From: a candidate division TM6 bacterium UASB340
Lineage (GTDB): Bacteria > Babelota > Babeliae > Babelales > UASB340
Direction of reading: 5' to 3'
DNA: 64,000 nt
NCBI GenBank assembly: GCA_001468925.1
Contig: LDIX01000005.1
Coordinates: 2,184-66,183, forward strand
Below are positions 13,849 to 56,393 of this stretch, piece by piece. A model generated the notes under the pieces. That model was not told the origin of the DNA and did no database searches. It worked only from the letters and a program-made list of their open reading frames with translations. The stretch's first letter is position 1. Every line of letters begins with the position of its first letter. Both the position numbers and the translations under genes were made by a program.

Positions 13849-13947
13849 TAAATATCGACATAGCTTATTGAATATATAAAAAAATCTAATTTTTATTTCA
13901 TCCAAAATCTTAGTTTATCGTTAATTTAATAAAATGTGTGTGGATAA

Positions 13948-14087
13948 GTCATCCCGGGCTTGACCCGGGATCTCTTTTGTATGCATTCACTTTTTTATAA
14001 GTTTTTCTACTTTTTTATCGTAATAGTATTTTATATAGTAAAAGTGAATGTTCGAGAAGGAGATCCCCGATCGTAGTCGGGGATGAC
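13948..14087. mobile_element. gene-less mini-element (MITE-like) with the same hairpin ends as the GIY-YIG unit
   Basis: The ends are 13948-13978 GTCATCCCGGGCTTGACCCGGGATCTCTTTT and 14057-14087 AAGGAGATCCCCGATCGTAGTCGGGGATGAC, in inverted orientation. An inner 11-bp inverted repeat is also present (CATTCACTTTT 13984-13994 / AAAAGTGAATG 14040-14050). There is no ORF inside. Confidence 0.6.
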
Positions 14088-14223
14088 AAACGCATAAAAC
14101 TGATTTTATTGTATGTATGCTTTGAGTGGCAATATGATAGGACTTAAGACCTGTTAAGTGTATTTTATATTTGTGTTCTAAGTTAATTTTGCTTAAACAA
14201 TATTCGTGTTAAAAAAGAAATAA

Positions 14224-37774: not shown

Positions 37775-37937
37775 TTCTGTAAAATAGTTTTGTGTGGGAC
37801 CAGATTCTGAAATCCGACTTATGCATAAAGCTATGGCTGACAAGCAGTATGACAAAGAATTTTGGTTTGAAAGTTTGGATTAAATTGGGGGACGGTCTTT
37901 AGCAACGTTGCTAAATTAAGATTTTACGAAGAAGTGT

Positions 37938-38381
37938 GTCATCCCGGCCGCCGAGCCGGGATCTCTTTCTTGAACTTTCGTATTTAATGCTATAACTATG
38001 AAAATTTATATTGTTTATATTATTACTAATCGGCCAAATGGCATTATTTATGTTGGTATTACCAGTGACCTAAAACGGCGAATGGCTGAACATAAACTTG
38101 GCATAATAAAAGGCTTCACACAAAAATATAAGCTAAAAAAGTTAGTTTATATTGAACAATTTGAGCTTGCCGACGATGCTATTAGAAGAGAAAAACAGTT
38201 AAAGCGTTGGCATAAAAAATGGAAATTTGATTTGATAGAAAAACATAATCCTGAATGGGATGATTTGTCTGAAAAATATTTTAATTCAAATGATATAGAG
38301 TATGATAAATGGATTTTGAATAGAAATATTTATAAGAAGTGAATGTATGAAAAGAGATCCCGGCTCGGTGGCCGGGATGAC
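37938..38381 (+). mobile_element. GIY-YIG gene cassette bounded by 31-nt inverted hairpin repeats (REPtron-like unit)
   Basis: 37938-37968 is GTCATCCCGGCCGCCGAGCCGGGATCTCTTT. The reverse complement of 38351-38381 is GTCATCCCGGCCACCGAGCCGGGATCTCTTT, which is 30/31 identical. Each end is itself a GC-rich hairpin. Confidence 0.6.
37998..38342 (+). CDS. GIY-YIG (URI-domain, COG2827-like) nuclease family protein
   Basis: YIVYIITN...GIIYVGITSDLKRRMAEHK...REKQLKRW carries the GIY/YIG, catalytic Arg and Glu motifs of small stand-alone GIY-YIG proteins. Confidence 0.85.
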   Translation: MKIYIVYIITNRPNGIIYVGITSDLKRRMAEHKLGIIKGFTQKYKLKKLVYIEQFELADDAIRREKQLKRWHKKWKFDLIEKHNPEWDDLSEKYFNSNDIEYDKWILNRNIYKK

Positions 38382-38476
38382 AACCGAAAATTTTATCATA
38401 GCTGGCAAGTGCAGAGTGTAATGCTTTTGAGATATATTTTTTAAATTGACAGCATTGCGGTATTTAGGGGCATATT

Positions 38477-42720: not shown

Positions 42721-42807
42721 GCCGAGATGGCGAAACTGGTAGACGCACTGCTTTAAGGGGGCAGCGGGAGTAATCCCGTAGGAGTTCGAGTCTCCTTCTC
42801 GGCACCA
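42721..42807 (+). tRNA. tRNA-Leu, type II (long variable arm), anticodon read as AAG, CCA encoded
   Basis: Hand-folded cloverleaf: acceptor GCCGAGA/TCTCGGC, D arm GCG-AAACTGGTAGA-CGC, anticodon arm CTGCT-TTAAGGG-GGCAG, variable arm CGGGAGTAATCCCGT, T arm AGGAG-TTCGAGT-CTCCT. Confidence 0.9.
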
Positions 42808-42870
42808 TACTTCGCCCCGTCTACGCGTAAAGCTTCGACGGGCAAGCAAGGCTACGTATGGCAGGCCATT
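42808..42870 (+). repeat. conserved tRNA 3' trailer motif (long version)
   Basis: TACTTCGC...GCTACGTATGGCAGGCCA starts immediately after the CCA. The same two blocks follow the second tRNA. This copy has an inserted CCCGTC/GACGGG hairpin. Confidence 0.45.
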
Positions 42871-42918
42871 AAGAATTTGGAATAAATTTATGTTTTTAGA
42901 TATTATTGCAAGGAGAGT

Positions 42919-44580: not shown

Positions 44581-44657
44581 GGCGACGTAGCTCAGCTGGT
44601 TAGAGCGACGGAATCATAATCCGTAGGTCCGGGGTTCGATTCCCTGCGTCGCTACCA
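44581..44657 (+). tRNA. tRNA with CAT anticodon (elongator Met or lysidine-modified Ile2), CCA encoded
   Basis: Cloverleaf: acceptor GGCGACG/CGTCGCT, D arm GCTC-AGCTGGTTAG-AGC, anticodon arm ACGGA-ATCATAA-TCCGT, T arm CGGGG-TTCGATT-CCCTG. It lacks the GGG/CCC anticodon stem of an initiator. Confidence 0.9.
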
Positions 44658-44690
44658 TACTTCGCTAAAGCTACGTATGGCAGGCCAGAC
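44658..44690 (+). repeat. conserved tRNA 3' trailer motif (short version)
   Basis: TACTTCGCTAAAGCTACGTATGGCAGGCCAG. CCATAC (including the CCA end) can pair with GTATGG. Confidence 0.45.
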
Positions 44691-44852
44691 CAAAAACTGT
44701 ATTTTCTTAATTTTCTTTTTTTTATATTTTATTTTATATAATCTGTTTAAATAATATGAATTAGATAGTGTGTGTTTATAATAAAAAATTTATTATAAAT
44801 AATACAAACGTGAGAATTAATTTTTAGCAAAAAGCAGTTTTGCGCTGTGCGA

Positions 44853-44982
44853 GAAGGGCGATAGCCCTTCGCTACCACAGTAACGCCATGCCAGAGGCAG
44901 GCTTTTTTGTTTTTTATAATAAATTCGAGTTAGCCCACTTCAGATGGGCGATATTGGGTTAGCGAACGGCTATCGCCGTTCG
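44853..44982. repeat. structured GC-rich repeat family 2, copy A (MITE-like, long hairpin-containing inverted ends)
   Basis: The left end is GAAGGGC-GATA-GCCCTTC GCTACCA...GCCATGCC-AGA-GGCAGGC. The right end, reverse-complemented, is CGAACGGC-GATA-GCCGTTC GCTAACC...CGCCCATCTGAAGTGGGC. An AT-rich spacer lies between them. Confidence 0.6.
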
Positions 44983-45013
44983 AGATACAAACGTAGTAAA
45001 CGCTAGGAAAATT

Positions 45014-46837
45014 ATGAAATTTATAGAAGTTGCCAAAATTTTTGATCTTATCGAAAAAGAATCATCCAGAACTGAAATGACAAAACTTTTGGCCGATTTA
45101 TTCAAAACTGCCACTCCAAATCAGGCTGCAATAATTTCTTATTTAACTCTTGGTGAATTAAATCCGACATACATCGGAACACAGTTTAATTTTGCATCAA
45201 AAAGCATGATCAAAGTTCTTGCCAAATTTTTAAACAAAAGTGAAAACGTAATTAATTTAAGAGCGCAAACGCTTGGCGATTTGGGGCTATTGATACAGGA
45301 ATATGATATATCCGGAAAAAGTGAGCCATTAACTTTAAACGAAGTAGAAAATTATCTTCAAGATTTTTTGAAAATTTCAGGCGATGGTGCTGTTGAAAAA
45401 AAAGAAATTTTGTTACTTGAGCTTTTTGAAAAGCTCGATTCACTTTCTATAAAATATGTAATTAGAATTATTTTGGGAAAACTTAGACTTGGCTTTTCAG
45501 ATATGACTTTGCTTGATGCTTTTTCTTGGATGTATGCGGGTAATAAATCTATAAGATTGGATCTTGAAGAAGCCTATAATGTTTGTGTTGATATTGGCAT
45601 GATAATTAGAGTTCTAAAAGAAGATGGTCTTGAAAAATTAAAAAAACATACAATTGTTACCGGTATTCCTGTGCGTCCTGCAGCGGCAGAAAGATTGCCA
45701 AATGCAAAAGATATTTTTCAAAAATTAGGCAAATGTGTAGCTCAACCCAAACTTGATGGATTTAGACTACAAGTGCATATTGATAACACTAAAAGTAAGC
45801 CACATGTTAATTTTTTTTCAAGAAATCTTCAAGATATGTCCGATATGTTTCCGGATCTTAAAAAAGCAGTTTTGGATTTAAAGGTAAAAACTTTGGTAGC
45901 TGAAGGTGAAGCTATTGCTTATGACGTTCATACCGGAACATTTTTGCCTTTTCAAGAAACTGTTAAAAGAAAAAGAAAATATGATATTGAACAAACTGCG
46001 CAAGACTTTCCATTAAAATTGTATTTTTTTGATCTTTTATATTTAAATGGAGAATCTTTTCTTGATAAAACTCATGAAGAAAGAAGAACAAAACTTTTGA
46101 CAGTTGCTACAACTAAAAAAGAAGATACCGTTTTTGTTGTTGAAGAAAAAAAAATTGATTCGTCAAAAGAACTAGAAAAATATTTTGAAGAAAATATATC
46201 TTTGGGACTTGAAGGCCTTGTTGTAAAAAAAACTAATGCCCTTTATCAGGCTGGAAAAAGAAATTTTAATTGGATAAAACTAAAACGCCAAGAGTCGGGA
46301 CATTTAGACGATACTATCGATTGCGTGATATTAGGTTACTATAAAGGCAAAGGTAAACGAGCTTCATTTGGCATAGGGGCGTTACTTGTTGGTATTTATA
46401 ACAAAAAACAAGATATCTTTCAGACTGTTGCAAAAATTGGAACCGGGCTTACAGATTTGGGATTGAAAGAGGTCAAAGAGAAGTGTGACCAAATTAAAGT
46501 TGTTAATAGACCTAAAAATGTTGAGTGTGCTAAAGAACTTTATCCTGATGCCTGGATTAGCCCTGAAATTGTTTGTCTTATAAGAGCTGATGAAATTACA
46601 TTATCACCGTTGCATTCTGCAGGTAAGACTGAAGATGAAGATGGGCTTGCACTGCGATTTCCAAGATTTATGGGCTATAGACCGGATAAAAGTGCTTATG
46701 AATCAACTTCTTTAGTTGAATTGAAAGAACTTTATTCTTTACAGTTTGAGGGTAAAGAGAAGAAATCAAAAAGAAAGTTGTCTAAAAAGACTAAAATTAA
46801 AGATGAGATTGATAAAAAAATATTAAGTATTTTTTGA
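45014..46837 (+). CDS. ATP-dependent DNA ligase (Lig1/archaeal-type, DBD + adenylation + OB domains)
   Basis: Motif I AQPKLDGFRLQVH (KxDG), EGEAIAYD, LYFFDLLYLNG, EGLVVKK and NWIKLKR. The 607-aa length implies an N-terminal DNA-binding domain. Confidence 0.9.
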   Translation: MKFIEVAKIFDLIEKESSRTEMTKLLADLFKTATPNQAAIISYLTLGELNPTYIGTQFNFASKSMIKVLAKFLNKSENVINLRAQTLGDLGLLIQEYDISGKSEPLTLNEVENYLQDFLKISGDGAVEKKEILLLELFEKLDSLSIKYVIRIILGKLRLGFSDMTLLDAFSWMYAGNKSIRLDLEEAYNVCVDIGMIIRVLKEDGLEKLKKHTIVTGIPVRPAAAERLPNAKDIFQKLGKCVAQPKLDGFRLQVHIDNTKSKPHVNFFSRNLQDMSDMFPDLKKAVLDLKVKTLVAEGEAIAYDVHTGTFLPFQETVKRKRKYDIEQTAQDFPLKLYFFDLLYLNGESFLDKTHEERRTKLLTVATTKKEDTVFVVEEKKIDSSKELEKYFEENISLGLEGLVVKKTNALYQAGKRNFNWIKLKRQESGHLDDTIDCVILGYYKGKGKRASFGIGALLVGIYNKKQDIFQTVAKIGTGLTDLGLKEVKEKCDQIKVVNRPKNVECAKELYPDAWISPEIVCLIRADEITLSPLHSAGKTEDEDGLALRFPRFMGYRPDKSAYESTSLVELKELYSLQFEGKEKKSKRKLSKKTKIKDEIDKKILSIF

Positions 46838-46942
46838 TCAGTTATTTATAAATCATCAAAAAATATTTTTAATTGAATTTATAGTTTTATATAATCTATG
46901 TTCATATAAAAAACTTATTATTTATTTTAATTGGGGATGGTT

Positions 46943-53205: not shown

Positions 53206-54657
53206 ATGAAAAATTTGATAAAAATTATACAAAATAGTTCAAGTAAAAATATTTTAATTATTGGTGACGTAATGCTTGATGAGTATATCTTTGGAACTGT
53301 TTCCAGAATATCTCCGGAAGCGCCGGTGCCAGTTTTAAAAGAAGAAAAAATGGAATGGTGCCTTGGTGGTGCTGCAAACGTTGCTTTAAATTGCAAAAAT
53401 ATAGGCTGTAATGTAAATATTGTTGGCATTATAAACGATATTGACTTTGCGGGTCAAAAGTTAGCATCTATGCTATCTGAAAATGGAATATCTTCATCAA
53501 ATTTAATAAAAAGCGAACAGAGAATTACCACATGTAAAAAAAGAGCTTTATGTGGTGGGCATCAACTTTTAAGAATTGATAACGAGTCTGAGCATAATTT
53601 AACAGACAAAGAGTTATTATTGATTACAGAAAAAATTAATAATTTGATTGTTAAAGATTCTATAATATTGATTTCTGATTATGCAAAGGGTGTAATTTCA
53701 AGTGAGTTGGTTAGGTTTGTTTCAGTAATTGCAAAATCCAGAAATTGTAAAATAATAGTTGATCCTAAAGGCAAAAATTTTGATAAATATATTGGCGTTA
53801 ATTATATAAAGCCAAATTATAAAGAATTTTTGCTAATGCTTGATGCTTATGGTTTGGATAAAAATAATTCAATATCTCATAATGCAAAAATTTTGTGTGA
53901 AAAATTATCTATTGACGGTCTGATTATTACGTTAGGCGAAAAAGGGATTCATTTTGTATCAAAAGATGAAGATATTTTTGTTCCGGCGCTTAAAAAAGAG
54001 GTTTATGATCTTACCGGTGCCGGTGATACCGTTTTGGCATTTTTAGCACTTGGCCTTTCTGTTGGCTTTGATATGCAAAAATGCTTGCAAATTGCAAATA
54101 CTGCTGCAGGCGTCGCTGTATCACATTTAAAAACTTATGCTGTAAGTTTGGAAGAACTTTTGGATAAGAATATTTATTCATCTGAAAAAATTTATGAAAA
54201 TTGGACCAATTTAAAAATTGAACTTGATTGGATTAAGGCTCAAAATAAAAAAATTGTTTTTACAAACGGATGTTTTGATCTTTTGCATTCCGGTCATATT
54301 TATTTATTAAATGAAGCAAAAAAGTTGGGCGATATTTTAGTTGTTGCAATTAATACCGATGAATCTGTAAAAAGATACAAAGGGCAGAGTAGGCCAATTA
54401 ATACTCTATATGAACGCATGCATGTTATGTCTTCACTAGGTATTGTCGATTTTGTTGTTTCATTTGAGCAGGATACACCCAAAGAACTTATTGAATATCT
54501 TTCACCTGATGTTTTGGTAAAAGGCGGCGATTATCAAGAAGAAAAAGTTGCCGGTGCAGATTTTGTTAAAAAGAGCGGTGGGCAAGTTGCAATTATTGAA
54601 TATCAAGCTGGTTTATCAACGACTAATATTGTTAAAAAGATTAGTACTGTAGGTTAA
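53206..54657 (+). CDS. hldE: bifunctional D-beta-D-heptose 7-phosphate kinase / heptose 1-phosphate adenylyltransferase
   Basis: The N-terminal ribokinase-like domain has ILIIGDVMLDEYIFGTVSRISPEAPVPVL and DLTGAGDT. The C-terminal cytidylyltransferase domain has FTNGCFDLLHSGHI. I moved the start to the Met at 53206 because the ORF-track start at 53092 adds an implausible leader. Confidence 0.9.
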   Translation: MKNLIKIIQNSSSKNILIIGDVMLDEYIFGTVSRISPEAPVPVLKEEKMEWCLGGAANVALNCKNIGCNVNIVGIINDIDFAGQKLASMLSENGISSSNLIKSEQRITTCKKRALCGGHQLLRIDNESEHNLTDKELLLITEKINNLIVKDSIILISDYAKGVISSELVRFVSVIAKSRNCKIIVDPKGKNFDKYIGVNYIKPNYKEFLLMLDAYGLDKNNSISHNAKILCEKLSIDGLIITLGEKGIHFVSKDEDIFVPALKKEVYDLTGAGDTVLAFLALGLSVGFDMQKCLQIANTAAGVAVSHLKTYAVSLEELLDKNIYSSEKIYENWTNLKIELDWIKAQNKKIVFTNGCFDLLHSGHIYLLNEAKKLGDILVVAINTDESVKRYKGQSRPINTLYERMHVMSSLGIVDFVVSFEQDTPKELIEYLSPDVLVKGGDYQEEKVAGADFVKKSGGQVAIIEYQAGLSTTNIVKKISTVG

Positions 54658-54675
54658 TAAAAATCCACCAAATTC

Positions 54676-54812
54676 GGAAGGCGATAGCCTTCCTCTACCA
54701 TAATATCGCCATGCCACTGGCAGGCTAATTTGTATTACGTAATAAATATTATTTCAAACGAGCCCACTTTAGATGGGCGACAGTAGGTTAGCGCAATGCT
54801 ACCGCTTTGCGC
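54676..54812. repeat. structured GC-rich repeat family 2, copy B
   Basis: GGAAGGC-GATA-GCCTTCC TCTACCA...GCCATGCC-ACT-GGCAGGC ... GCCCA-CTTTAGA-TGGGC ... GCGCAATGC-TACC-GCTTTGCGC. It is collinear with copy A, and the stems differ by compensatory changes. Confidence 0.6.
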
Positions 54813-54825
54813 GGATTATTGTAGT

Positions 54826-56193
54826 TTAGTAAAAATCCATATATGAGTCCAAATTTTTAATCATATCCACTTCGTGATCTTGTAGTTCTGGTGGTAAATA
54901 AGAATGTAATTCACTTGGCAGTTTTTCATAATCGACTTGCTTGAAAAACATTTTGCAATTAAATACATTATCGAAAATTTTAGGCGTTAAGTATTTCGGA
55001 TCAAAACTAAAAAAATGATTAGCGTAAAGGTTGGTACTGTAACCATGACTAAAAGTATTCCAAAATAATACACTTTTATCTTTTAATAAATTTCTTTCTG
55101 CATCAGATATTAATGCAGCTAAAGTTTTTCCCGTGTATGTTCCCTCAAGAATTTGGTTGGCCAGATTATAAAATAATATTACAGAATTTGCTGCTTGACT
55201 TGTTATGTCAGCATATCCGGCACCTACAAAATTGTGATTAATTTCGACATCAACTCCGGGATATTTAATTTGTGTTCCTGAAAGCGTTGCAAAATTTTTT
55301 GGAAAATTATTATCCAAAGAATTTAGATAAATAACCGTTTTGTTTATTAAATCTACAAGATTTTTAGCTTTTTCTTCAGGCGTAGAACTTATTCTTACCG
55401 GAATAATTTTGCTTTTCAACCCGGCGGCGGCAGCACCAATAATTAGTCCGGCAGCAGTTCCACAACTTCCAAGTGTTACATAAATAATATCCGGATCCGG
55501 AATATTTAGATCAATTAATTGCTTTTTAAGCTCAAATGCAGCATTTACAAAAGCAATTGTGCCAAGTTCGTTTGAGCCACCCACAGGTATAAAATAGTAA
55601 TTATTTTTTTTGCAAAAGTTTAAACCATAATTTTCTAATTTTTCATTTGTGTTCAAACTTTTATCTGCATAAAAAATCTGCGTGGCAACTTTTGTCATTA
55701 AAGACAAATTTCTTATAACAATGCTTGTAATTCTTTGATCGTTAAGTATTAATACAGAATTTAATCCGAGCAATTTTGCACAAACTGCAGTTTCAAGTGC
55801 ATGATTTGAACCGGCACCACCAAGCGTGCAAACGGTTTTGTAGCCTTTAGATATTGCATCAGCCAATAGAAATTCAAGCTTTCGCATTTTGTTTCCTGTT
55901 GGAATATTTTTACTATGTTTATAACCATCATCTTTGTAATATAAGCTTTTACAATTTAAACTTGGCCTAAATCTCTCTGAAAACTTTTCCCAATAATCAG
56001 GGGCATTTATATCTTTTTGAGAAGCATGTTTTTTTGTATCAATTTTTATTATTGGGCTTGGATATTCGCCTAAATTAATATGTGCTATTTTATTTTCTAA
56101 TTTTGGATATGCATCAAATAATGGGATTGTGTAAGATTTGTTTAAGATAAATATAAAAGATATTAAAAATAAAAATTTTTTTGAAATATTCAT
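54826..56193 (-). CDS. PLP-dependent ACC deaminase / D-cysteine desulfhydrase-family protein with signal peptide and C-terminal extension
   Basis: TGNKMRKLEFLLADA (the K is the PLP lysine in this family) and GGAGSNHALETA, with an N-terminal hydrophobic signal. Confidence 0.75.
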   Translation of the reverse strand: MNISKKFLFLISFIFILNKSYTIPLFDAYPKLENKIAHINLGEYPSPIIKIDTKKHASQKDINAPDYWEKFSERFRPSLNCKSLYYKDDGYKHSKNIPTGNKMRKLEFLLADAISKGYKTVCTLGGAGSNHALETAVCAKLLGLNSVLILNDQRITSIVIRNLSLMTKVATQIFYADKSLNTNEKLENYGLNFCKKNNYYFIPVGGSNELGTIAFVNAAFELKKQLIDLNIPDPDIIYVTLGSCGTAAGLIIGAAAAGLKSKIIPVRISSTPEEKAKNLVDLINKTVIYLNSLDNNFPKNFATLSGTQIKYPGVDVEINHNFVGAGYADITSQAANSVILFYNLANQILEGTYTGKTLAALISDAERNLLKDKSVLFWNTFSHGYSTNLYANHFFSFDPKYLTPKIFDNVFNCKMFFKQVDYEKLPSELHSYLPPELQDHEVDMIKNLDSYMDFY

Positions 56194-56238
56194 AAACTCT
56201 CCTGAGAAAATTACTCAAATTGAATGTAAAATAATAGT

Positions 56239-56275
56239 ATTGCGCTAACACAATATCGTTTACATAAACGTAGGC
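56239..56275. repeat. degenerate half-copy of repeat family 2
   Basis: TTGCGCTAACACAATATCGTTTACATAAACGTAGGCT aligns with ..TTCGCTAACCCAATATCGCCCATCTGAAGTGGGCT, the reverse complement of copy A's right end. Confidence 0.35.
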
Positions 56276-56393
56276 TCTAATATTAAACAACAATATTATA
56301 AAATACTAGAAAGCTTTGCGAATGCAATGATGACACACTAACAAATTTAGGCTTTATTTTTATTTAAATTTAGATGTTTATTCAACGCTTGTA

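What the first reader, a model, noticed from the sequence alone, without database searches (positions are those of the whole stretch)
44853..44982. Second structured GC-rich repeat family: about 130-bp units with 50-nt hairpin-containing inverted ends and compensatory stem changes
Copy A (44853-44982) and copy B (54676-54812) are collinear. Each has a left end, an AT-rich spacer and a right end that is the reverse complement of the left-end pattern. Each end contains two elements:
- a 7-9-bp stem closed by a GATA loop, followed by GCTA(A/C)C;
- a second hairpin, GCC-A-TGCC-loop-GGCA-GGC on the left and GCCCA-7 nt-TGGGC on the right.

The first stem is GAAGGGC/GCCCTTC in A and GGAAGGC/GCCTTCC in B, which is two compensated base pairs. 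In the right ends it is CGAACGGC/GCCGTTCG (A) and GCGCAATGC/GCTTTGCGC (B). So the structure is conserved while the sequence is not. A degenerate half-copy lies at 56239-56275.

These could be MITEs, REP-like protein-binding sites or a small structured RNA family. No associated enzyme gene is visible in this window.
Basis: seen in the sequence. Interest (0 to 1): 0.6.

Follow-up and report, generated by a model that had tools for sequence, protein, structure and literature searches.

The report
Mobile double-hairpin DNA repeats, Dependentiae
These are copies of a small, GC-rich, hairpin-forming repeat, similar to the REP/BIME and MITE "junk" repeats of other bacteria; it comes and goes between closely related strains of an AT-rich intracellular bacterium, so it is a fairly ordinary selfish element and not a conserved RNA gene.

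Summary
Copies A (44853-44982) and B (54676-54812) each consist of two inverted units of about 50 nt. Each unit has hairpin H1 (7-9 bp, loop GATA/GGTA closed by GC/GC), a 17-nt linker (YTAMC-NYANTN-WCGCC), and hairpin H2 (GCC...GGC).

A covariance model scores the four units at 59-73 bits and the degenerate copy at 28.5 bits. Eight more units occur in related Dependentiae (TM6) contigs. Both stems show compensatory changes.

The 130-bp "unit" is really a heterodimer. Single units and tandem direct units also exist.

The decisive evidence is comparative:
- A strain with about 94% nucleotide identity lacks A and B at the orthologous sites. Site B there is an empty site holding one copy of a 20-bp sequence that flanks the element in the window.
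- A third site holds a composite that is decaying differently in the two strains.
- Another composite sits in a gene junction that is empty in a relative, and it rewrites the TatD C-terminus.

There is no Rfam match, no positional conservation and no strand bias. No transposase gene was found in the ORFs screened.

Best reading: a non-autonomous REP/BIME-like or MITE-like mobile repeat, probably recognised as single-stranded DNA hairpins. The mobilising enzyme is unknown. This is a new member of a known kind, of moderate to low interest.

The parts
44853..44902 (+). Unit A-L. H1 is 44853-44870 (GAAGGGC-GATA-GCCCTTC). The linker is 44871-44887 (GCTACCACAGTAACGCC). H2 is 44885-44902 (GCC-A-TGCC-AGA-GGCA-GGC). 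A T-run follows at 44903-44915.
   Evidence: Sequence; R1 gives 72 bits; fold.
44903..44932 (.). AT-rich spacer of composite A.
   Evidence: It shares TTTG and TAATAAAT with the spacer of B.
44933..44982 (-). Unit A-R, read on the - strand: CGAACGGC-GATA-GCCGTTCG, GCTAACCCAATATCGCC, then H2 GCCCAT-CTGAA-GTGGGC.
   Evidence: R1 gives 66.6 bits; fold.
44802..44811 (.). Left copy of the exact 10-bp direct repeat ATACAAACGT. The right copy is at 44985-44994. Together they bracket element A plus 40 extra nt on its left.
   Evidence: 3 of 200 shuffles reach it. The empty site in L015 is too diverged to confirm that this is a target duplication.
54648..54667 (.). Left copy of the 20-bp target duplication at site B (TGTAGGTTAATAAAAATCCA). 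It supplies the last codon and the stop of hldE.
   Evidence: 0 of 200 shuffles.
54676..54725 (+). Unit B-L. H1 is 54676-54693 (GGAAGGC-GATA-GCCTTCC). The linker is TCTACCATAATATCGCC. H2 is 54708-54725 (GCC-A-TGCC-ACT-GGCA-GGC).
   Evidence: R1 gives 73.1 bits; fold.
54726..54761 (.). AT-rich spacer of composite B.
54762..54812 (-). Unit B-R, read on the - strand: GCGCAAAGC-GGTA-GCATTGCGC (one A.A mismatch), GCTAACCTACTGTCGCC, then H2 GCCCAT-CTAAA-GTGGGC.
   Evidence: R1 gives 59.4 bits; fold.
54820..54839 (.). Right copy of the 20-bp target duplication (TGTAGTTTAGTAAAAATCCA). It is identical to the single copy in the empty site of strain L015 and carries the stop and last codons of the convergent PALP-family gene.
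56221..56281 (+). Degenerate unit. H1 is eroded, while the linker GCTAACACAATATCG and H2 (TTTAC-ATA.. / GCC-like TAC-ATAAAC-GTA GGC) are kept.
   Evidence: R1 gives 28.5 bits; comparison with L015.
56313..56329 (-). Stub of the partner unit of the site-3 composite (GCTTTGCGAATGCAATG). The rest was removed by a 126-bp deletion relative to L015.
   Evidence: The L015 copy at 13891-13951(-) scores 27.2 bits.

Best explanation
**What it is.** This is a low-copy family of non-autonomous, GC-rich 'double-hairpin' repeats in the AT-rich genomes of one Dependentiae (TM6) lineage. It is of the REP/BIME or MITE kind.

**The module.** The module is about 50 nt long and has three parts:
- an outer hairpin H1 with an invariant GC-GNTA-GC top;
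- a conserved unpaired linker whose complement reads GGCGW-N6-GKTAR (GGTAG in most units), which is a GTAG-type tag abutting H1;
- an inner hairpin H2.

**How modules are arranged.** Modules usually sit as tail-to-tail heterodimers. One unit has a 7-bp H1 and a bulged H2. The other has a continuous 6-bp H2. They flank a 20-36 nt AT-rich spacer.

**Shown here**
- The elements are gained and lost between close strains.
- They land in very short intergenic junctions, often at stop codons. They can supply a new stop codon or a new C-terminus.
- They decay by deletion and substitution once in place.
- Their stems keep pairing through compensatory changes.

**Inferred mechanism**
- The hairpins are recognised as extruded or single-stranded DNA structures by an enzyme acting in trans. 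A HUH/Y1 (RAYT-like) enzyme or a structure-specific nuclease are candidates. That enzyme nicks near the conserved linker and copies or moves the element.
- Recombination between copies shuffles H1 and H2 types.
- When transcribed, units lying just after a co-oriented gene probably act as 3' stabilisers or terminators. A-L has a T-run after its hairpin. This is a by-product, not the reason the elements exist.
For: **Family membership beyond the window**
- Units with the same architecture occur in TM6 GW2011_GWF2_28_16-like contigs: L001 (inverted pair), L002 (direct tandem), L007 (single) and L009 (inverted pair).
- One more occurs in L027 at 39 bits.

**Presence/absence**
- A is absent from the secD-tRNAMet-ligase spacer of L015/16/17, L018, L020, L022, L023 and L024.
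- B is absent from L015, where hldE and the PALP-family gene overlap by 4 nt.
- The site B alignment shows a clean 172-bp insertion, made of about 152 bp of element plus a 20-bp duplicated target.
- The L001 composite occupies a TatD/MutS2 junction that is 12 bp long in L026.
- TatD in L001 is 273 aa against 267 aa in most orthologues. The extra residues are read from H1 and the linker.

**Decay**
- Site 3 is eroded differently in the window and in L015.

**Strain differences**
- The two strains are 94.3% identical over 16.3 kb. Four of their five large indels involve GC-rich hairpin elements.

**Structure**
- Covariation is shown, and identical folds of all units on both strands.
- Each of the 4 composites pairs a bulged-H2 unit with a continuous-H2 unit.

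**Literature**
- GTAG-tagged REPs have 6-13 bp stems and sub-families with complementary stem changes. They form HH/TT/HT dimers with 20-100 bp spacers, heterodimers, and some spacers with stem-loops at both ends (PMC3733652).
Against: - Copy number looks low. There are 4 to 5 units in this 64 kb, about 5 in a 275-kb contig, and none in about 175 kb of syntenic DNA from six relatives, apart from one relic. Classical REPs number tens to hundreds.
- No mobilising enzyme was found. No Y1 transposase, DDE transposase or recombinase appears in the window ORFs scanned or in the Pfam tables of the fetched loci.
- The flanking direct repeats are not of fixed length: 20 bp at B, 10 bp at A, none at L001 or L009. 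This fits neither a DDE transposase nor the no-duplication insertion of IS200/IS605 or RAYT.
- The direction of the site B event (insertion, or precise excision in L015) cannot be polarised.
- The GTAG tag is exact in only 7 of 11 units.
- Covariation by itself would also fit an RNA.
Confidence: 0.7

Rival explanations
1. A family of small structured RNA genes of about 50 nt each. Each has a 5' hairpin, a single-stranded 'seed' linker and a 3' terminator-like hairpin. They are arranged as convergent pairs, and the linker acts in trans or binds a protein.
For: - Both stems show compensatory changes.
- The linker is conserved and unpaired in every unit.
- A-L is followed by TTTTTTGTTTTTT.
- Several units lie directly after co-oriented genes.
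Against: - There is no Rfam family, even at E<=10.
- Units are absent from orthologous sites in a strain with about 94% nucleotide identity and in five other relatives.
- One site is visibly decaying.
- There is no promoter-like site directly upstream.
- Only some units have a T-rich tail.
- Units overlap a coding end in L001.
- Both strands fold equally well, and the few G.U or A.C positions point to opposite strands in different units.
Confidence: 0.12
2. Bidirectional intrinsic terminators or mRNA-stabilising 3' hairpins, maintained by the host between convergent or tandem genes. On this view the repeated sequence is selected for that function and not for mobility.
For: - B-L and B-R start 18 and 13 nt after the stops of two convergent genes.
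- L1-L, L1-R and L9- abut or overlap stop codons.
- A-L has a hairpin plus a T-run after tRNA-Met.
Against: - The simple terminator scan calls none of them.
- Most H2 hairpins lack a T-run.
- Four of 12 units lie antisense just upstream of gene starts: A-R, L007, L2-2 and L9+.
- The close strain manages with overlapping genes and no element.
- The conserved 17-nt linker and the invariant GC-GNTA-GC loop are not needed by a terminator.
Confidence: 0.1
3. Sites of a site-specific recombination system (att-like or attC-like). On this view the 20-bp direct repeat at site B is the duplicated core of an integration event.
For: - An imperfect 20-bp direct repeat flanks B and regenerates both gene ends, as att cores do.
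- Two loci are next to tRNA genes: A and L002.
- The linker contains GCTACCA, which resembles a tRNA 3' end.
Against: - No integrase or recombinase was found in the window ORFs scanned or in neighbouring genes.
- There is no array organisation and no GTTRRRY/RYYYAAC cores as in attC.
- The other composites have no direct repeats.
- The inserted DNA is only about 150 bp and has no cargo.
Confidence: 0.05

Closest known systems
REP / BIME elements (GTAG-tagged repetitive extragenic palindromes; Di Nocera et al. 2013, PMC3733652; RAYT-associated REPs)
   Same: - It is a short GC-rich imperfect palindrome with a GTAG-type tag next to the stem, seen on the complement of the unit.
- Stems are 7-9 bp, and sub-types differ by complementary changes.
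- Units occur as singles, tail-to-tail heterodimers and head-to-tail dimers, with 20-100 bp spacers.
- They are extragenic, often between convergent genes and just after stop codons.
- In function they may also serve as 3' RNA hairpins.
   Different: - Each unit carries a second hairpin (H2) at a fixed distance, plus a conserved 17-nt linker.
- Copy number appears low.
- The GTAG tag is exact in only 7 of 11 units.
- No RAYT gene has been seen.
- One insertion carries a 20-bp target duplication.
- The host is an AT-rich intracellular Dependentiae bacterium, a phylum in which Di Nocera et al. report no REPs.
Bacterial MITEs (Correia/NEMIS, RUP, ERIC, Rickettsia palindromic elements)
   Same: - The composite is 120-150 bp with imperfect inverted ends of about 50 bp and no ORF.
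- Close strains differ by presence or absence.
- Flanking direct repeats occur at two sites.
- An insertion can extend a coding region (the TatD C-terminus in L001), as Rickettsia palindromic elements do.
   Different: - There is no fixed-length target duplication.
- No autonomous partner with the same ends is known.
- Half-elements occur alone and in direct tandem.
- The two ends belong to distinct sub-types.
- The stems co-vary and are not simply conserved.
Mitochondrial GC clusters and double-hairpin elements (yeast GC42 and related clusters, PMC4478555; Allomyces DHEs, Paquin et al. 2000, cited there)
   Same: - They are GC-rich hairpin modules scattered in a very AT-rich, reduced genome.
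- They are polymorphic between strains.
- Modules merge and shuffle. Here H1 and H2 types recombine.
- The mobilising enzyme is unknown, and resident endonucleases are the suspected drivers.
   Different: - The host is bacterial, not organellar.
- The sequences are unrelated.
- The yeast clusters have short AG/TAG target duplications.

Membership tests
GTAG-tagged REP / BIME | Short GC-rich imperfect palindrome (stem 6-13 bp, short loop) | tested here: met
   H1 is 7-9 bp with a 4-nt loop in all 11 intact units.
GTAG-tagged REP / BIME | Unpaired GTAG (or degenerate) tag at one foot of the stem in most copies | tested here: inconclusive
   The complement of the linker start reads GGTAG in 7 of 11 units, GGTTAG in 2 and GGTAAA in 2. 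In the 9-bp stems the tag partly overlaps the stem.
GTAG-tagged REP / BIME | Many copies per genome, extragenic | tested here: inconclusive
   The units are extragenic, with one overlapping a gene end. Only 4 to 5 lie in this 64 kb, and the exact pattern hit 4 times (5 units with the model) in the loci from one 275-kb contig. No whole genome could be scanned.
GTAG-tagged REP / BIME | Dimers (HH/TT/HT), often heterodimers, with 20-100 bp spacers | tested here: met
   There are four tail-to-tail heterodimers (A, B, L001, L009) and one head-to-tail pair (L002).
GTAG-tagged REP / BIME | A RAYT (Y1/HUH transposase) gene in the genome, typically flanked by the REPs | not testable with these tools
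   No Y1_Tnp was found in the window ORFs scanned or in the Pfam tables of the fetched loci.
MITE | Terminal inverted repeats with no coding capacity | tested here: met
   The composites are 123-138 bp with inverted ends of about 50 bp and no ORF.
MITE | Target-site duplication of characteristic fixed length | tested here: not met
   The direct repeat is 20 bp (18/20) at B and 10 bp at A. None exceeds chance at L001, L009, L002, L007 or L027.
MITE | Insertion polymorphism with an identifiable empty site | tested here: met
   Site B compared with L015, and L001 compared with L026.
MITE | Autonomous element with the same ends encoding the transposase | not testable with these tools
   None was seen in any locus held. 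The GIY-YIG ORFs in the window and in L027 are flanked by the other hairpin family.
Known structured RNA family (Rfam) | Match to a curated covariance model | tested here: not met
   At gathering threshold only a tRNA was found. Scans at E<=10 of both copies gave only sub-threshold chance hits.
Conserved small-RNA gene | Retention at orthologous positions in related genomes | tested here: not met
   It is absent from the orthologous spacers in six relatives, and one site is a relic.
Integron attC site | R''/L''-L'/R' cores (RYYYAAC ... GTTRRRY), arrays of cassettes next to intI | tested here: not met
   GTTAGCG and CGCTAAC fit the cores only partly. The copies are 10 kb apart among housekeeping genes, and no integrase was found.
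IS200/IS605-derived miniature elements | Left and right subterminal hairpins on the same strand, insertion without duplication | tested here: not met
   In the composites the units are inverted, not co-linear, and site B carries a 20-bp duplication.

The most novel reading that the evidence does not exclude
The double-hairpin units, the CCCGG-hairpin family and the small TTCGCTAAAGCT motif might together form a set of hairpin-ended elements mobilised by a structure-specific nuclease. The candidate is the roughly 100-aa GIY-YIG protein that is itself framed by hairpin ends in this window and in L027. Transposases have not been seen in these genomes, so this would be a bacterial counterpart of mitochondrial GC clusters. 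It would be an enzyme-plus-hairpin mobility system not yet described, and it could explain the variable-length target duplications and the nesting of one element inside the loops of others.
Probability: 0.15. Interest if true: 0.6.

Novelty: new member of a known kind. Interest (0 to 1): 0.35.

Why it matters
- Dependentiae are obligate intracellular bacteria with reduced genomes. Their one cultured genome has almost no transposases: B. massiliensis has a single IS4 (PMC4378268).
- In the 16 kb that could be compared, four of the five large structural differences between the two close strains involve small hairpin repeats. This points to an active, enzyme-poor form of genome plasticity.
- The repeats can rewrite gene ends and create spacers between overlapping convergent genes.
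- For annotation, these units should not be called as sRNA genes or terminators without transcript data.
- For mobile-DNA biology, the family is a clean case in which hairpin structure is what is preserved and stem sequence is not.

Tried and rejected
- **tRNA-like or split-tRNA reading.** The right-end hairpin looks like an anticodon arm (loops CTTCAGA and CTTTAGA). I rejected this because ARAGORN and Rfam find nothing there and the rest of the unit has no T-arm or acceptor.
- **Archaeal sRNA (C/D or H/ACA).** I rejected this because the window is bacterial: it has CCA-encoding tRNAs, SecD and HldE, and its closest relatives are Dependentiae.
- **One long hairpin RNA of 130 nt.** Only copy A folds that way. 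In B, L001 and L009 the two H1 stems differ, so the local hairpins form instead. The L and R linkers differ at 5 of 17 positions.
- **Exact-pattern scans.** The genome scan found only one TM6 assembly. The metagenome scan gave 12 loci, of which 5 were real and the rest were chance hits in GC-rich DNA without hairpins. The viral scan gave 0. blastn against plasmids and phages gave no match.
- **Source contig.** Exact-protein look-ups failed to find the window's own contig.
- **GIY-YIG link.** I tested whether GIY-YIG genes are flanked by second-family units. In the window and in L027 they are flanked by the other family. One look-up returned no DNA.
- **Orthologous sites in held sequences.** tblastn for the L001, L002, L007 and L009 flanking genes found nothing in the sequences then held.
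- **GIY-YIG insertion site.** It shows no clean target duplication, and extra flanking DNA came in with the element.

Full report
**What is there**

The window is 21-33% GC and bacterial. It has CCA-encoding tRNA-Leu and tRNA-Met and genes for SecD, HldE, Fe/Mn-SOD and an ATP-dependent DNA ligase. The ligase is 98% identical to one from a 'Candidatus Dependentiae bacterium' and 81% identical to one from TM6 GW2011_GWF2_28_16.

Read on their own strands, the four ends align to one module of about 50 nt:
- hairpin H1, 7-9 bp, with the invariant top GC-G(A/G)TA-GC;
- exactly 8 nt from the loop to YTAMC, then NYANTN, then WCGCC;
- hairpin H2, whose outer GCC/GGC pairs are fixed and whose inner stem and loop vary.

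**Is it more than chance?**

A covariance model built on ten units (R1) scores the four window units at 59-73 bits. The degenerate copy at 56221-56281 scores 28.5 bits, and nothing else in the 64 kb exceeds 12.4 bits.

On 13 aligned units, 84% of cells pair and 6 of 8 H1 pairs change on both sides. No shuffle of 500 reaches the observed covariation, and sliding the partners drops pairing to 28-48%.

Within the GGAAGGC-type stems alone, direct reading of the alignment shows at least five separate compensated substitutions: GGAAAGC/GCTTTCC, GGATGGC/GCCATCC, GAAGGGC/GCCCTTC and GAACGGC/GCCGTTC.

H2 also co-varies, as seen in the individual folds:
- bulged form: TGCC/GGCA against CACC/GGTG;
- continuous form: TGC/GCA, TAC/GTA and CAT/GTG.

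So the observation, including the compensatory changes, is confirmed.

**The unit is the half, not the 130-bp composite**

An exact-pattern scan of one genome per species hit only TM6 GW2011_GWF2_28_16. The metagenome scan added loci from two long contigs (247 and 275 kb) that carry the same or closely related TM6 sequence. Its other hits were chance matches in GC-rich DNA without hairpins.

The related loci hold these arrangements:
- L001: an inverted pair;
- L002: two units in direct tandem upstream of tRNA-Phe;
- L007: a single unit;
- L009: an inverted pair with a 20-nt spacer;
- L027: another single unit.

In copy B, L001 and L009 the two H1 stems of a composite differ, so the local hairpins form and no long hairpin does. 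The L and R linkers differ at 5 of 17 positions, so they are not selected to pair with each other.

Every one of the four composites joins a unit with a 7-bp H1 and a bulged H2 to a unit with a continuous 6-bp H2. That is a heterodimer rule.

H1 and H2 types are also shuffled among units. For example, H2 GCCTAC-ATAAAC-GTAGGC occurs with three different H1 types (and notebook).

**Comparative evidence**

Locus L015 (GCA_018896115.1) is syntenic with window 36.5-58.7 kb at 94.3% nucleotide identity.

- **Site A.** L015 lacks element A. The secD-tRNAMet-ligase spacer is empty there and in five further relatives.
- **Site B.** L015 lacks element B. There hldE and the convergent PALP-family gene overlap by 4 nt. 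In the window, 172 bp are inserted at that point. They consist of about 152 bp of element plus a second, 18/20-identical copy of TGTAGTTTAGTAAAAATCCA, so both genes keep intact ends.
- **Site 3 (56.2-56.4 kb).** Both strains hold remains of one composite, eroded differently. The window keeps the linker and H2 of one unit and a 17-nt stub of the other. L015 keeps only H2 of the first unit and most of the second, at 27 bits.
- **L001.** The composite lies in a TatD/MutS2 junction that is 12 bp in L026. In L025 the junction is 35 bp and holds only a degenerate H1-like remnant. TatD in L001 is 273 aa against 267 aa in most orthologues, and its tail NAAGGSLPLP* is translated from H1 and the linker.
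- **Overall.** Four of the five large indels between the two strains involve GC-rich hairpin elements. The fifth is a 4.8-kb block of leucine-rich-repeat genes.

This is the behaviour of a mobile or recently mobile selfish repeat, not of a conserved gene.

**RNA or DNA?**

- There is no Rfam family at gathering threshold or at E<=10.
- No promoter-like site lies directly upstream, and the simple terminator scan calls none of the units.
- Only the bulged-H2 units tend to be followed by T-rich sequence. A-L is the clearest case.
- Both strands fold equally well.
- The few non-Watson-Crick positions point in opposite directions. A.C on the unit strand in the GCAGCAGGC stems would be G.T on the complement. 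T.G on the unit strand occurs in H2 of A-R and B-R.
- About half of the units lie just downstream of co-oriented genes. Four lie antisense just upstream of gene starts.

I therefore favour selection on DNA hairpins, extruded or single-stranded. Any RNA effect, such as 3' stabilisation or termination, would be secondary.

From my own knowledge, not tested here: d(GC-GNNA-GC) is a well-known, unusually stable DNA mini-hairpin motif. This would fit the invariant top of H1.

**Mechanism**

On the complementary strand each unit reads ...GGCGW-N6-GGTAG-[H1]. That is a GTAG-type tag abutting a palindrome, which is the defining layout of GTAG REPs. Those repeats also show the following (PMC3733652):
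- complementary stem variants;
- HH, TT and HT dimers with 20-100 bp spacers;
- heterodimers;
- occasional stem-loops at both spacer ends.

The closest functional analogy is therefore REP/BIME, for which HUH/Y1 transposases (RAYTs) are the proposed drivers. I could not test for a RAYT.

No transposase or recombinase appears in the window ORFs I scanned, among neighbours of the other units, or in the Pfam tables of the fetched loci.

The direct repeats are 20 bp at B, 10 bp at A and absent elsewhere. This fits neither a DDE enzyme nor IS200/IS605-type insertion. At A, and at the GIY-YIG insertion, extra flanking DNA came in with the element. That pattern would also be compatible with spread by recombination between strains.

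The enzyme and the insertion chemistry remain inferred, not shown.

**Comparison and novelty**

The family behaves like REP/BIME elements and like small MITEs. Conceptually it resembles the GC clusters and double-hairpin elements of AT-rich mitochondrial genomes (PMC4478555).

Membership in GTAG REPs is only partly established:
- palindrome and dimer features are met;
- the tag is met in 7 of 11 units;
- copy number and RAYT association are untested or unmet.

MITE membership fails on a fixed-length target duplication.

It is a new family of a known kind of element, in a phylum where such repeats have not, to my knowledge and in the searches made, been described.

**Verdict**

- Interest is moderate to low (0.35).
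- The most novel reading still open is a hairpin-specific, nuclease-driven mobility system that links the three GC-rich element families seen here. I give it a probability of about 0.15.

Noticed in passing
window 37933-38385 (ORF 37998-38342 +); ORF-less derivative at 13945-14090: - The other GC-rich hairpin family (GTCATCCCGG...CCGGGATC plus about 20 nt) forms inverted ends of about 50 bp around a 114-aa GIY-YIG nuclease gene (Pfam PF01541, E 5e-18).
- A 150-bp ORF-less copy at 13.9-14.1 kb keeps the last bases of the ORF (AAGTGAATGT) at its inner ends, so it looks like a deletion derivative.
- The GIY-YIG element is absent from strain L015. The serS-radical SAM spacer is 65 bp there against 703 bp in the window.
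- A 78%-identical GIY-YIG gene in L027 has the same hairpin ends.
   Followed up: partly
window 42808-42876 and 44658-44690; L015 7467-7540 and 14008-14020; L009 1620-1631 and 2232-2243; L020 7936-7947; L027 609-620: - A third GC-rich motif, ..CC-TTCGC(N)TAAAGCT-ACGG.GGAC.., sits immediately after the CCA end of tRNA-Leu and tRNA-Met.
- It also lies on both sides of the tmRNA gene in L009.
- It is nested inside the loop of a first-family hairpin (L015) and inside the H2 loop of a second-family unit (L027).
- It could be a very small insertion element that targets hairpin loops, or a processing signal.
   Followed up: partly
window 46931-51408: - Three leucine-rich-repeat ORFs (RNI-like by eye, not scanned here; the first also carries repeated EFEFNCKEDFSCVN..DCKDICST.. 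blocks) form a 4.8-kb block between the ligase and SOD genes.
- Strain L015 lacks the whole block, so it is a strain-specific island of possible effector genes.
   Followed up: partly
window 44826-44846: A small AT-rich hairpin, GCAAAA-AGCAG-TTTTGC, lies directly left of element A. It falls inside the segment bracketed by the 10-bp direct repeat ATACAAACGT.
   Followed up: no
window 42721-42807: ARAGORN calls tRNA-Leu(AAG). The Rfam gathering-threshold scan of the whole window listed only the tRNA-Met at 44581.
   Followed up: no
L025 6800-6845: - The TatD/MutS2 junction of this relative carries only a hybrid, non-pairing H1-like piece (GCGCAGCAGGTGATAGCCATCCG).
- The piece is framed by TAGCCCC/GGGGCTA, in which the two TAG stop codons are part of the inverted repeat.
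- It may be a footprint of a lost composite.
   Followed up: partly
window 45014-46837: An ATP-dependent (eukaryote/archaeal-type) DNA ligase is conserved and syntenic across many Dependentiae. More than 100 orthologues have 60-98% identity.
   Followed up: no
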